Assembly: GCF_965641715.1 (NCBI RefSeq)
Contig: NZ_OZ282453.1
DNA: 64,000 nt
Reading direction: 5' to 3' (one strand)
Origin: Escherichia coli
Lineage (GTDB): Bacteria > Pseudomonadota > Gammaproteobacteria > Enterobacterales > Enterobacteriaceae
Shown here: piece after piece, positions 59,701 to 62,700 of the stretch
Layout: each line of letters begins with the position of its first letter
Numbering within the stretch: the first letter of the stretch is position 1
Program-made: the position numbers

Positions 59701-62700
59701 GCTGAAGGCCAGCAATTAGTGAATCAGGCAATGGGCGGAATTTTACAGGACAGCATTAATGAAATGGGCGCGAAAGCGGTGCTGAAAAGCGGCGGTAACC
59801 CATTACAGAATGTGCTGGGAAGCCTGGGGGGGCTGCAATCCTCAATCCAAACCGAGTGGAAAAAGCAGGAAAAAGATTTCCAGCAGTTTGGCAAAGATGT
59901 TTGTAGCCGCGTTGTGACTCTGGAAGATAGCCGCAAAGCCCTGGTCGGGAATTTAAAATAATCCTCTATTTTAAGACGGCATAATACTTTTTTATGCCGT
60001 TTAATTCTTCGTTTTGTTACCTGCCTCTAACTTTGTAGATCTCCAAAATATATTCACGTTGTAAATTGTTTAACGTCAAATTTCCCATACAAAGCTAAGG
60101 GATAATGCGTAGCGTTCACGTAACTGGAGGAATGAAATGGAGTTTTTCAAAAAGACGGCACTTGCCGCACTGGTTATGGGTTTTAGTGGTGCAGCATTGG
60201 CATTACCCAATATCACCATTTTAGCAACCGGCGGGACCATTGCCGGTGGTGGTGACTCCGCAACCAAATCTAACTACACAGCGGGTAAAGTTGGCGTAGA
60301 AAATCTGGTTAATGCGGTGCCGCAACTGAAGGACATTGCGAACGTTAAAGGCGAGCAGGTAGTCAATATCGGCTCCCAGGACATGAACGATGATGTCTGG
60401 CTGACACTGGCGAAAAAAATTAACACCGACTGCGATAAAACCGACGGCTTCGTCATTACTCACGGTACCGACACGATGGAAGAAACCGCTTACTTCCTCG
60501 ACCTGACGGTGAAATGCGACAAACCGGTGGTGATGGTCGGCGCAATGCGCCCGTCCACCTCCATGAGCGCAGACGGTCCATTCAACCTGTATAACGCGGT
60601 AGTGACTGCAGCTGATAAAGCCTCCGCTAATCGTGGCGTGCTGGTGGTGATGAACGACACCGTACTGGACGGTCGCGATGTCACCAAAACCAACACCACC
60701 GACGTAGCGACCTTCAAGTCTGTTAACTACGGTCCTCTGGGTTACATTCACAACGGTAAGATTGACTACCAACGTACCCCGGCACGTAAGCACACCAGCG
60801 ACGCGCCGTTCGATGTCTCTAAGCTGAATGAACTGCCGAAAGTCGGCATTGTTTATAACTACGCTAACGCATCCGATCTTCCGGCTAAAGCACTGGTAGA
60901 TGCGGGCTATGATGGCATCGTTAGCGCTGGTGTGGGTAACGGCAACCTGTATAAAACCGTATTTGACACTCTGGCGACCGCCGCGAAAAACGGCACTGCA
61001 GTCGTGCGTTCTTCCCGCGTACCGACGGGCGCTACCACTCAGGATGCCGAAGTGGATGATGCGAAATACGGCTTCGTCGCCTCTGGCACGTTGAACCCGC
61101 AAAAAGCGCGCGTTCTGCTGCAACTGGCTCTGACGCAAACCAAAGATCCGCAGCAGATCCAGCAGATCTTCAATCAGTACTAACCACCTCGCCCCGGTAT
61201 CGTGCCGGGGCTTTTTCACTTCAGACTTACGTCCATTGCCAATTTTTATTACCCTGATGATAATCACCGGAATAAATTATTCCGCGCGAGGGTTTTCGGG
61301 TGAAAAAACAATGGATTGTTGGCATGGCGCTGCTTGTGTTGATGACTGGTAATGTCTGGGCAGATGGCGAACCGCCAACTGAAAATATCTTAAAAGATCA
61401 ATTCAAAAAGCAGTATCACGGCATTCTCAAGCTTGATGCCATCACCTTAAAAAATCTTGATGCTAAGGGTAATCAGGCCACCTGGTCAGCGGAAGGCGAT
61501 GTCTCTTCCAGTGACGATCTCTATACCTGGGTTGGTCAGTTGGCAGATTACGAACTGCTGGAGCAGACCTGGACGAAAGATCAACCGGTAAAATTCTCGG
61601 CGATGTTAACCAGTAAAGGAACGCCCGCGTCTGGCTGGTCGGTGAACTTTTACTCTTTTCAGGCGGCAGCCAGCGATCGTGGGCGGGTGGTCGACGATAT
61701 CAAAACGAATAATAAATATCTGATCGTGAATAGCGAAGATTTCAATTATCGCTTTAGTCAGCTTGAGTCTGCGTTGAATAACCAGAAGAACTCGATTCCT
61801 GCGCTGGAGAAGGAAGTGAAAGAGCTTGATAAGAAAATGGCAGCGGCGCAGAAAGCAGCGGATGCATATTGGGGAAAAGATGCAAACGGCAAGCAAATGA
61901 CCCGCGAAGACGCCTTTAAAAAAATTCACCAACAGCGTGATGAGTTTAATAAACAGAACGATAGCGAGGCGTTCGCGGTTAAATATGACAAAGAGGTTTA
62001 TCAACCGGCGATTGCGGCATGTCATAAACAGAGTGAAGAGTGTTATGAAGTGCCGATTCAGCAGAAACGAGATTTCGATATCAACGAACAACGGCGACAG
62101 ACTTTTCTGCAATCACAAAAACTTAGCCGTAAATTGCAGGATGACTGGATAACGCTCGAAAAAGGGCAATATCCGTTAACGATGAAAGTTTCAGAAATAA
62201 ACAGTAAAAAAGTCGCGATTTTGATGAAAATTGACGATATCAATCAGGCTAATGAACGCTGGAAAAAAGATACCGAACAACTGCGGCGCAATGGGGTGAT
62301 TAAGTAAGTTTTGATATAGCGCACGATTTGTAGCAGGATGCGGCGTTGACCCCGCATCCGGCAATCAACGTCTGATGCGACGCTAGCGCGTCTTATCAGA
62401 CCTACAACAGCTGCCACATGTCGGCTGAGGTGCTCACGCCGCATCCGGCAATCAACGTCTGATGCGACGCTTGCGCGTCTTATCAGACCTACAACCGTTG
62501 CCACATGTAGGCTGGATAAGGCGTTCACGCCGCATCCGGCAATACAAGTTTACTCCGCCAGAAAAAGCTCCAGCAGCGAATTTAAAAACAGCTTCCCATG
62601 TTCCGTAATCTGCCAGTAATCCGCACATTCTGTGAGATAACCCTGGGCAATCGCCTCGTCTAACTGTGGGCGAATCACATCTTCGCAAAGCCCGGTATAC

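What the first reader, a model, noticed from the sequence alone, without database searches (positions are those of the whole stretch)
62328..62542. REP array with two near-identical 75-bp units between convergent yggM and hemW
Two copies of a roughly 75-bp unit containing REP palindromes fill the gap between convergent genes and produce a spurious 94-aa ORF in the track. This is a typical BIME, noted mainly as a source of annotation artefact.
Basis: seen in the sequence. Interest (0 to 1): 0.2.

Follow-up and report, generated by a model that had tools for sequence, protein, structure and literature searches.

The report
Ordinary E. coli BIME-2 REP array
The stretch between the convergent genes yggM and hemW is an ordinary, already catalogued E. 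coli repeat cluster (a BIME-2 array of five REP hairpins, the counterpart of K-12's REP217). Its copy number differs between strains, and the 94-aa reading frame across it is an artefact, not a gene.

Summary
The repeat is real, but the numbers need correcting. Positions 62330-62541 hold five REP palindromes that alternate y-type and z2-type in opposite orientation. The tandem period is 87 bp (about 2.2-2.5 units), not 75 bp; the best 75-nt stretch of the unit is 94.7% identical to its copy. This is a BIME-2 array and the orthologue of K-12 REP217, which has three REPs. Among complete E. coli genomes I found alleles with 1, 3, 5 and 7 REPs, each step being one 87/88-bp z2+y unit. About 8% of genomes, mostly O157:H7, carry the junction typical of alleles with 5 or more REPs. 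Roughly a quarter carry a TRAP transporter operon here instead of REPs. The 94-aa ORF is spurious. It has no Pfam match, and its exact sequence is absent from a 15-billion-protein collection. It is not annotated in any REP-bearing genome inspected, and its length ranges from 11 to at least 160 aa between alleles. The most likely role is a shared structured 3' region for both convergent transcripts, acting as a barrier to exonucleases and as part of Rho-dependent termination of hemW read-through. The hemW-proximal REP lies 9 nt after the stop codon, close enough for REP-mediated damping of translation. The element is already known and of low interest.

The parts
61300..62307 (+). yggM (DUF1202 family protein, 335 aa). 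Its stop codon is at 62305-62307, 22 nt before the first REP.
   Evidence: ORF; Pfam DUF1202 E=4e-195; RefSeq annotation of the matching loci
62330..62363 (+). REP1, a y-type variant (GTAGCAGGATGCGGCGTTGACCCCGCATCCGGCA). The 5' GTAG is intact. RNA hairpin about -18 to -20 kcal/mol.
   Evidence: (I4)
62364..62369 (.). Short tail-to-tail linker (ATCAAC). It is 6 nt shorter than the linker in the Rfam naRNA4 consensus.
62370..62405 (-). REP2, z2-type, with GTAG on the minus strand (CTAC at 62402-62405). It has 3 mismatches to my recalled z2 consensus. Hairpin about -18 to -19 kcal/mol.
   Evidence: (I5)
62406..62419 (.). Head-to-head linker, 14 nt (AACAGCTGCCACAT)
62420..62450 (+). REP3, a degenerate y-type REP (GTCGGCTGAGGTGCTCACGCCGCATCCGGCA). 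GTAG is mutated to GTCG, it is about 3-4 nt shorter, and its hairpin is weaker (-15.1 on +, -9.9 on -).
62451..62456 (.). Second short tail-to-tail linker (ATCAAC)
62457..62492 (-). REP4, z2-type, differing from REP2 at 1 nt
   Evidence: (I6)
62493..62506 (.). Second head-to-head linker, 14 nt (AACCGTTGCCACAT)
62507..62541 (+). REP5, a canonical y-type REP (1 mismatch to my recalled consensus, GTAG intact). On the hemW mRNA strand its stem begins 9 nt after the hemW stop codon.
62550..63686 (-). hemW (radical SAM heme chaperone, 378 aa). Its stop codon is at 62552-62550.
   Evidence: ORF; RefSeq annotation
62244..62528 (-). 94-aa ORF: a translation artefact of the REP array plus the antisense 3' end of yggM. 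The 87-bp period equals 29 codons, so the repeat keeps the frame open.
62256..62356 (-). Region corresponding to the Rho-utilisation (rut) peak mapped in K-12 at 3098511-3098610 on the hemW-sense strand, just downstream of the array. It has 30 C against 20 G. Assigned by homology only.
   Evidence: K-12 table; coordinate mapping; composition

Best explanation
This is a BIME-2 type REP array: five REP palindromes in the order y, z2, y, z2, y, in alternating orientation, built from a basal y REP next to hemW plus two 87-bp (z2+y) units. It is the expanded allele of E. coli K-12 REP217. As DNA it belongs to the genome-wide REP/BIME family. It gains and loses whole units by recombination or slippage between the direct repeats (...CCGCATCCGGCAAT...), possibly helped by the REP-associated transposase TnpA-REP. 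As RNA it forms the shared 3' untranslated region of two convergent transcripts. On either strand it folds into a row of stable hairpins of about -10 to -20 kcal/mol each. These most likely block 3'-to-5' exonucleases, protecting the yggM and hemW messages. Together with the C-rich stretch just beyond the array on the hemW-sense strand, they most likely pause RNA polymerase for Rho-dependent termination, so that the yggS...hemW operon does not read antisense into yggM and ansB. No intrinsic terminator is present. Because REP5 begins 9 nt after the hemW stop codon, it may also slow ribosome release and damp HemW synthesis. Shown here: the anatomy, family membership, orthology to REP217, copy-number polymorphism and the non-coding nature. 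Inferred from published work on K-12 and on other REPs: the terminator, stabiliser and translation effects.
For: Anatomy:
- There are five palindromes with an 87-bp period.
- REP5 matches my recalled y consensus with 1 mismatch. REP2 and REP4 match my recalled z2 consensus with 3 mismatches each. Shuffles give 0 matches.
- Rfam naRNA4, whose consensus (as printed) is a y hairpin, a linker and a z2 hairpin, i.e. one y+z2 unit, matches 62419-62489 at 63.0 bits (gathering score 59.5) and 62332-62402 at 58.8 bits. REP5 matches the y half alone.
- The BIME-2 definition comes from PMC3333891.

Orthology:
- K-12 REP217 is listed at 3098414-3098534 as 'Convergent, hemW, yggM'.
- These coordinates fall exactly on the three REPs of the K-12 intergenic region.

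Polymorphism:
- Intergenic lengths are 63/64/68 bp (1 REP), 151/154 bp (3), 241/242 bp (5) and 329 bp (7). The 7-REP allele contains an exact 87-bp duplication.
- The internal junction 62396-62465 is present in 444 of 5426 genomes.

Structure:
- Both strands fold far better than shuffles: -112.1 kcal/mol (z = -6.9) and -119.6 kcal/mol (z = -6.5).
- Single REP hairpins range from -9.9 to -19.8 kcal/mol.

Termination:
- No intrinsic-terminator-like or promoter-like site lies in the gap.
- In K-12 a rut peak on the hemW-sense strand overlaps the end of REP217 and is flagged as overlapping a 'BST' at 3098480-3099197.
- The corresponding window stretch has C above G, 30 against 20.

Published function of REPs:
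- REP325, a BIME-2, acts as a partly Rho-dependent terminator and an mRNA stabiliser.
- REPs between convergent genes correlate with higher expression of both genes.

Translation:
- REPs fewer than 16 nt from a stop codon are reported to down-regulate translation (Liang et al. 2015, as summarised in PMC12306157).
- The 9-nt spacing is the same in every REP-bearing allele inspected.
Against: - No expression data exist for this strain or this allele. All functional statements are transferred from K-12 or from other REPs.
- Harris et al. report large variance between REPs. They found no significant difference in mRNA half-life for genes with terminal REPs, and convergent-gene expression did not scale with REP conservation.
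- Alleles with one REP, and alleles with a TRAP operon and no REP at all, are common. The array and its copy number are therefore clearly dispensable.
- REP3 is degenerate: GTAG is lost and the hairpin on the hemW-sense strand is weak.
- The meaning of the rut/BST columns in the supplementary table is my inference from the column names.
Confidence: 0.8

Rival explanations
1. The 94-aa ORF (62244-62528, minus strand) is a real small protein gene with an internal 29-residue repeat.
For: The ORF is open, starts with GTG, and the 87-bp period (29 codons) keeps the frame through the repeat.
Against: - It has no Pfam family; the best hit is E=0.28.
- The exact sequence is absent from about 15 billion predicted proteins.
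- It is not annotated by PGAP in any of the REP-bearing genomes inspected.
- In other alleles the same frame is open for only 11, 16, 35 or 46 codons, or runs on to 156 or at least 160 codons antisense into yggM. Neither the start, the end nor the length is conserved.
- The sequence is fully explained as REP DNA found hundreds of times per genome (median 32 matching places per genome).
- No promoter-like site was found.
Confidence: 0.01
2. The units are naRNA4-like nucleoid-associated small RNA genes whose transcripts bind HU and bridge cruciform DNA to condense the chromosome.
For: One unit passes the Rfam naRNA4 gathering score (63.0 against 59.5) and a second is just below it at 58.8. Qian et al. 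2015 reported HU-bound RNAs from REP325 and REP-REP contacts.
Against: - The Rfam consensus is simply a y hairpin, a linker and a z2 hairpin, so any similar y+z2 pair can score; another such pair in this window, at 5851-5927, scores 78.7. The match shows shared repeat family, not a separate gene.
- The linker here is 6 nt shorter than in naRNA4.
- Harris et al. 2026, from a group that includes the original senior author, found that deleting or overexpressing REP325/naRNA4 does not change nucleoid size. [quoted passage not shown]
- No promoter-like site lies in the gap.
Confidence: 0.05
3. The array is functionally neutral repeat DNA, a domesticated or selfish REP/BIME cluster. It persists and changes copy number by recombination, replication slippage or TnpA-REP activity, with no selected effect on yggM or hemW.
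For: - Copy number varies freely (1, 3, 5, 7) even within related backgrounds, and includes an exact recent 87-bp duplication.
- About a quarter of sampled genomes have no REP here at all.
- REP3 is decaying.
- BIME copy number at a given locus is known to vary between strains, and TnpA-REP cleaves and recombines BIMEs in vitro.
Against: - The hemW-proximal half-REP and its 9-nt spacing to the stop codon are retained in every REP-bearing allele seen.
- K-12 data place a rut peak and a 'BST' flag at the array.
- REPs between convergent genes correlate with higher expression genome-wide.
- This reading is not exclusive of the best explanation. It disputes only selection, not mechanism.
Confidence: 0.3
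4. The array acts mainly at the DNA level as a BIME-2 DNA gyrase site that removes the positive supercoils building up between the two convergent transcription units.
For: Gyrase cleavage sites are over-represented in BIME-2 elements, preferentially in y-type REPs, independently of transcription (PMC6379681). This array is a BIME-2 with three y-type REPs between convergent genes.
Against: Only 'a subset of BIME-2' is enriched. The named examples are sucC/sucB and tldD/yhdP, and the held supplementary text of that paper does not mention yggM, yggW or hemW, although the file was cut when stored. There is no direct evidence for this locus.
Confidence: 0.2

Closest known systems
E. coli K-12 REP217 (REP element between hemW/yggW and yggM, 3098414-3098534)
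   Same: It sits at the same locus, has the same flanking genes in the same convergent arrangement, the same REP types and linkers, and the same 9-nt spacing from the hemW stop codon.
   Different: K-12 has 3 REPs (154-bp gap). The window has 5 (242-bp gap), that is one extra 87/88-bp z2+y unit whose y REP is degenerate. The hemW-proximal y REP has GTAG here and GTCG in K-12.
BIME-2 family of bacterial interspersed mosaic elements (Gilson/Bachellier/Hofnung nomenclature, as summarised in PMC3333891)
   Same: It has y and z2 REPs in inverse orientation, a short tail-to-tail linker, tandem repetition, an extragenic position and a copy number that varies between strains.
   Different: Nothing essential differs.
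REP325 / naRNA4 (Rfam RF02564), the 12-REP BIME-2 between yjdM and yjdN
   Same: It shows the same y+z2 unit architecture, with Rfam scores of 63.0 and 58.8 bits. Its likely mode of action is the same: terminator plus stabiliser in a 3' UTR.
   Different: It has 5 REPs rather than 12. It lies between convergent genes rather than inside a tandem operon. Its linker is 6 nt shorter. No experimental data exist for this locus.
REP-mediated translational down-regulation (Liang, Rudd & Deutscher 2015, e.g. the nrdAB REP)
   Same: A REP hairpin begins fewer than 16 nt (here 9 nt) after a stop codon, that of hemW.
   Different: This is untested for hemW. I could not read the primary paper to see whether yggW/hemW is on its list.

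Membership tests
REP (repetitive extragenic palindrome) of E. coli | Imperfect palindrome of 30-40 nt matching one of the y, z1 or z2 consensus types | tested here: met
   REP5 matches the y consensus with 1 mismatch. REP2 and REP4 match the z2 consensus with 3 mismatches each, against 0 expected by chance. REP1 and REP3 are diverged y types, aligned to the y half of the Rfam model and found by fuzzy matching. The consensus strings were recalled from memory. They are corroborated by the Rfam naRNA4 consensus and by other matches in the window.
REP (repetitive extragenic palindrome) of E. coli | Conserved GTAG tetranucleotide 5' to the foot of the palindrome (PMC3333891) | tested here: met
   It is present in 4 of 5 REPs: REP1 GTAG at 62330, REP2 CTAC at 62402-62405, REP4 CTAC at 62489-62492 and REP5 GTAG at 62507. 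REP3 has GTCG.
REP (repetitive extragenic palindrome) of E. coli | Mismatch or bulge within the hairpin stem | tested here: met
   The predicted hairpins of REP2, REP4 and REP5 contain the internal 1x1 or 2x2 mismatch, which corresponds to the unpaired columns within the stems of the Rfam consensus structure.
REP (repetitive extragenic palindrome) of E. coli | Extragenic location and high copy number in the genome | tested here: met
   It lies wholly between the yggM and hemW stop codons. The 645-bp query found a median of 32 places per genome (an undercount, because a limit was reached). There are further REPs in the window at 5848-5930, 38188-38354 and 59136-59169.
BIME-2 | Composed of y and z2 REPs (not z1) in inverse, alternating orientation | tested here: met
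   The order is y(+), z2(-), y(+), z2(-), y(+). No z1-type REP was seen.
BIME-2 | REP and iREP separated by a short linker (S), not the long IHF-binding L linker of BIME-1 | tested here: met
   The tail-to-tail linkers are 6-7 nt and the head-to-head linkers are 14 nt. There is no room for an IHF site.
BIME-2 | Linker sequences match the canonical S and s/l/r motifs | not tested
PMC3333891 states that BIME-2 linkers vary in length and sequence.
BIME-2 | Occurs as tandem copies, with number variable between strains at a given locus | tested here: met
   There are 2.2 copies by TRF. Alleles with 1, 3, 5 and 7 REPs exist.
BIME-2 | Bound and cleaved by DNA gyrase in vivo | not testable with these tools
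   The literature shows enrichment in a subset of BIME-2 only. This locus is not mentioned in the held supplement.
naRNA4 (Rfam RF02564) | Score at or above the Rfam gathering threshold (59.5 bits) | tested here: met
   62419-62489 scores 63.0 bits and 62332-62402 scores 58.8 bits, just below. The model's consensus is a y hairpin, a linker and a z2 hairpin, so the score shows shared repeat family only.
naRNA4 (Rfam RF02564) | A discrete HU-associated RNA product with a role in nucleoid condensation | not testable with these tools
   No expression data are available here. The proposed role is itself disputed.
Protein-coding gene (94-aa ORF) | Reading frame and product conserved among orthologous loci; homologues or a family in protein databases | tested here: not met
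   Frame length is 11 to at least 160 codons among 8 alleles. There is no Pfam hit. The exact sequence is absent from the 15-billion-protein collection. It is never annotated.

The most novel reading that the evidence does not exclude
BIME-2 copy number at this locus (1, 3, 5 or 7 REPs, or none where the TRAP operon sits) could act as a strain-specific dial on HemW. HemW is a heme chaperone, and the dial could also set antisense read-through into yggM and ansB. In that reading the expanded 5-7-REP alleles, found mostly in the O157:H7 lineage, would give measurably different termination, mRNA stability or stop-codon-proximal ribosome stalling than the K-12 allele.
Probability: 0.12. Interest if true: 0.35.

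Novelty: already known. Interest (0 to 1): 0.1.

Why it matters
It matters little beyond housekeeping. The result confirms that an ORF-finder hit of 94 aa should be suppressed and that the region should be labelled as a REP/BIME-2 element, the orthologue of K-12 REP217. The locus does offer a tidy natural allelic series: 0, 1, 3, 5 and 7 REPs between the same two convergent genes. That series could serve as a ready-made test bed for the current question of whether REP arrays tune termination, mRNA stability and translation of neighbouring genes. It also gives a simple length marker, in 87-bp steps, that separates lineages such as O157:H7 from K-12.

Tried and rejected
- I tried to read Liang, Rudd & Deutscher 2015 and Liang & Deutscher 2016, to see whether yggW/hemW is among the genes with a REP within 15 nt of the stop. 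Neither is held, so I relied on the summary in PMC12306157.
- I looked for REP repeat_region features in NC_000913.3. The record as served lists only CDS in this stretch. The name REP217 came from the supplement of the Harris et al. 2026 preprint.
- I looked for gyrase cleavage data at this locus in the Topo-seq supplement. It does not mention yggM, yggW or hemW, but the file was cut, so the result is uninformative.
- The exact-sequence look-up of the 94-aa ORF found nothing, and Pfam gave only noise.
- Counting alleles by query coverage does not work. Repeat units align twice, so 3-REP alleles also show 100% coverage. I used a diagnostic internal junction instead. That count (444) includes a few O55:H7-type 3-REP alleles that match 60 of 70 nt, so it is a slight overestimate of alleles with 5 or more REPs.
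- The answer was clear without them.
- Readings considered and rejected: an intrinsic terminator (none found in the gap), a promoter inside the array (none), and BIME-1 (no z1 REP and no long linker).
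Full report
**1. What is in the sequence**

The window is Escherichia coli chromosome. 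The 645 bases around the finding match 5425 of 5426 complete E. coli genomes. The locus is annotated everywhere as yggM (DUF1202 family protein) facing hemW (radical SAM heme chaperone).

- yggM is the 335-aa ORF at 61300-62307 on the plus strand (Pfam DUF1202, E = 4e-195).
- hemW is the 378-aa ORF at 62550-63686 on the minus strand.
- The two genes converge on a 242-bp gap, 62308-62549.

Within the gap, positions 62330-62541 (212 bp) hold five imperfect palindromes:

| REP | Coordinates | Type | Notes |
|---|---|---|---|
| REP1 | 62330-62363 | y variant | GTAGCAGGATGCGGCGTTGACCCCGCATCCGGCA |
| REP2 | 62370-62405 | z2 | GTCTGATGCGACGCTAGCGCGTCTTATCAGACCTAC |
| REP3 | 62420-62450 | degenerate y | GTCG instead of GTAG, about 3-4 nt shorter |
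| REP4 | 62457-62492 | z2 | one base different from REP2 |
| REP5 | 62507-62541 | near-consensus y | GTAG intact |

- Neighbouring REPs are in opposite orientation.
- The tail-to-tail linkers are 6-7 nt (ATCAAC) and the head-to-head linkers are 14 nt.

**2. Check of the observation**

- Tandem Repeats Finder reports one array, 62352-62543, with period 87, 2.2 copies and 90% matches.
- The repeat finder reports two 87-nt copies at 89% identity and a third partial copy of the first 33 nt.
- The best-conserved 75-nt stretch (62352-62426 against the stretch 87 nt downstream) is 94.7% identical. A 57-nt core is 98.2% identical.
- The repeat is not chance. The y and z2 consensus strings, recalled from memory, match REP5 with 1 mismatch and REP2/REP4 with 3 mismatches each, while dinucleotide shuffles gave no match at all.
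- The 94-aa ORF is there, at 62244-62528 on the minus strand.

**3. What it is**

Ton-Hoang et al. (PMC3333891) summarise the nomenclature.
- E. coli REPs are 30-40-nt imperfect palindromes with a conserved GTAG at the foot and a mismatch in the stem. They come in types y, z1 and z2.
[quoted passage not shown] They occur as tandem copies, and the number varies between strains at a given locus.

Every one of these features that I could test is met here (see the membership table). The one untested feature is the identity of the linkers with the canonical S/s/l/r motifs.

Rfam gives independent support. The naRNA4 model (RF02564) has as its consensus a y hairpin, a 13-nt linker and a z2 hairpin.
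- It matches REP3+REP4 at 63.0 bits (gathering score 59.5) and REP1+REP2 at 58.8 bits.
- It matches REP5 alone on the y half.
- The linker in the window is 6 nt shorter than in the model.

The K-12 counterpart is already catalogued. The supplement of Harris et al. 2026 lists 'REP217, Convergent, 3098534-3098414, hemW, yggM'. Those coordinates fall exactly on the three REPs of the K-12 gap.

**4.

I read the gap in eleven further genomes.

| REPs | Gap length | Examples |
|---|---|---|
| 1 | 63, 64 or 68 bp | QEC11-421, the BL21 derivative Nico21(DE3), FDAARGOS_1303 |
| 3 | 154 bp; 151 bp | K-12; O55:H7 RM12579, where the hemW-proximal REP is the degenerate y |
| 5 | 242 bp; 241 bp | the window and isolate 23S01245-7; strain 504211, on K-12-like flanks |
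| 7 | 329 bp | strain 139, with an exact 87-bp duplication |

- Every difference is a gain or loss of a whole z2+y unit of 87-88 bp, with the junction in the direct repeat ...CCGCATCCGGCAAT.... This is the expected outcome of slippage or unequal exchange between the repeats. In principle it could also result from TnpA-REP, which cleaves and recombines BIMEs in vitro.
- Series of 1, 3 and 5 REPs on K-12-like flanks and of 3, 5 and 7 REPs on O157-like flanks suggest that the changes recurred.
- A 70-nt query across the internal junction (62396-62465) is found in 444 of 5426 genomes (8.2%), mostly O157:H7. There were 467 places in the 444 genomes, so about 23 genomes hold it twice. A few of the 444 are O55:H7-type 3-REP alleles that match only 60 of the 70 nt.
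- From the evenly spaced sample, and only roughly:
  - about 43% of records have the K-12-type 3-REP length;
  - about 20% have a 1-REP allele;
  - about 25% match only up to the end of yggM.
- In that last class a three-gene TRAP transporter operon lies between yggM and hemW and there is no REP at all. The left breakpoint is 14 nt after the yggM stop.

**5. The ORF**

- The 87-bp period is 29 codons, which is why a frame stays open through the repeats.
- It is not a gene. There is no Pfam family, and the exact sequence is absent from about 15 billion predicted proteins.
- No CDS is annotated across the REP array in the REP-bearing RefSeq genomes read.
- The same frame from the same GTG is open for 11, 16, 35, 46, 94, 98, 156 or at least 160 codons in the eight alleles.
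- No promoter-like site lies in the gap.

**6. How it most likely works**

*Shown.*
- Either strand of the gap folds far better than shuffled sequence: -112.1 kcal/mol (z = -6.9) on the plus strand and -119.6 kcal/mol (z = -6.5) on the minus strand.
- Single REPs form hairpins of -9.9 to -19.8 kcal/mol.
- There is no intrinsic-terminator-like site in the gap.
- The stretch just beyond the array on the hemW-sense strand is richer in C than in G: 30 against 20 over 62356-62256, and 27-32% C against 17% G in sliding windows.

*Transferred from K-12.* A Rho-utilisation peak is listed at 3098511-3098610 on the hemW-sense strand. It overlaps the end of REP217 and is flagged as overlapping a 'BST' at 3098480-3099197. 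I read BST as a bicyclomycin-sensitive transcript, from the column names only.

*Transferred from other REPs.*
- REP325, a 12-REP BIME-2, is a partly Rho-dependent terminator and protects the upstream message.
- REPs between convergent genes go with higher expression of both genes.
- Nearly 40% of REPs between convergent genes lie in predicted bidirectional terminators.

*Inference.*
- The array is the common structured 3' end of the yggM message and of the yggS-...-hemW operon message.
- It blocks exonucleases and, together with the downstream rut region, stops hemW transcription from running antisense into yggM and ansB.
- REP5 starts 9 nt after the hemW stop codon in every REP-bearing allele.
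- REPs fewer than 16 nt from a stop codon are reported to lower translation through ribosome stalling (Liang et al. 2015, as summarised in PMC12306157). HemW output may therefore also be damped.
- yggM's stop codon is 22 nt from REP1, outside that range.

*Against a strong functional claim.*
- The effects of REPs are reported as highly variable. No significant difference was found in mRNA half-life for genes with terminal REPs, and convergent-gene expression did not scale with REP conservation.
- Alleles with one REP or none are common.

**7. Rivals**

- A protein gene: rejected (section 5).
- A naRNA4-like nucleoid RNA gene: the Rfam hit reflects shared repeat family only, and the nucleoid role of naRNA4 has been contradicted.
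- A neutral repeat with no selected function: compatible with the polymorphism and not excluded. It disputes selection rather than mechanism.
- A gyrase site: BIME-2 elements are enriched for gyrase cleavage, mainly in y REPs, but only a subset, and I found no data for this locus.

**8. Novelty and verdict**

This is an already known element of an already known kind. The K-12 allele is catalogued as REP217. BIME-2 copy-number variation between strains is described in the literature. The 5-REP allele is present in hundreds of sequenced genomes. Interest is low. The only mildly useful by-product is the natural 0/1/3/5/7-REP allelic series between one pair of convergent genes.

Noticed in passing
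L005 2201-2255; L010 1094-4300; L011 1701-1755: In roughly a quarter of sampled E. coli genomes the yggM-hemW gap holds a three-gene TRAP transporter operon (substrate-binding protein, small and large permease; about 3.2 kb) instead of REPs. The left breakpoint is 14 nt after the yggM stop (GTTTGATATAGTGC|...). A different, non-REP hairpin (TTAATGCGCC CGCA GGCGCATTAA) sits right after the hemW stop. Which state is ancestral was not determined.
   Followed up: partly
L001 1-1700: In isolate 23S01245-7 (NZ_OZ197100.1), the genome with the most similar REP array, yggM is split by an IS1 family transposase insertion and annotated as two pseudogene fragments.
   Followed up: no
window 5848-5930: This is another single BIME-2 unit (z2 on the minus strand, 13-nt linker, y on the plus strand). 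It scores 78.7 bits against Rfam naRNA4, higher than the units in the finding.
   Followed up: no
window 38188-38354: Two y-type REPs in the same orientation lie 133 bp apart (38188-38221 and 38321-38354, minus strand). A shorter palindrome (ATGCCCGATGCGCAAGCTTATCGGGCCTAC, possibly z1-like) lies between them. This is a different BIME architecture from the one in the finding.
   Followed up: no
window 59136-59169: A solitary y-type REP (2 mismatches to my recalled consensus) lies about 1 kb upstream of the ansB start.
   Followed up: no
window 50423-50498 and 31154-31375: There is a tRNA-Phe (GAA) gene on the minus strand, which from memory is pheV, a known island integration site. The sRNA C0719 (Rfam RF00117, 299 bits) is at 31154-31375. 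From memory of K-12 coordinates, the spacing between hemW and C0719 seems about 10 kb larger than in K-12, which would suggest extra DNA in this strain somewhere in between. This was not checked.
   Followed up: no
window 62370-62405 and 62457-62492: Both z2 REPs read GTCTGATG...CATCAGAC where the recalled consensus has GCCTGATG...CATCAGGC. This is a compensatory pair change at the base of the stem, shared by all alleles of this locus. It is consistent with the units having arisen by local duplication rather than independent insertion.
   Followed up: partly
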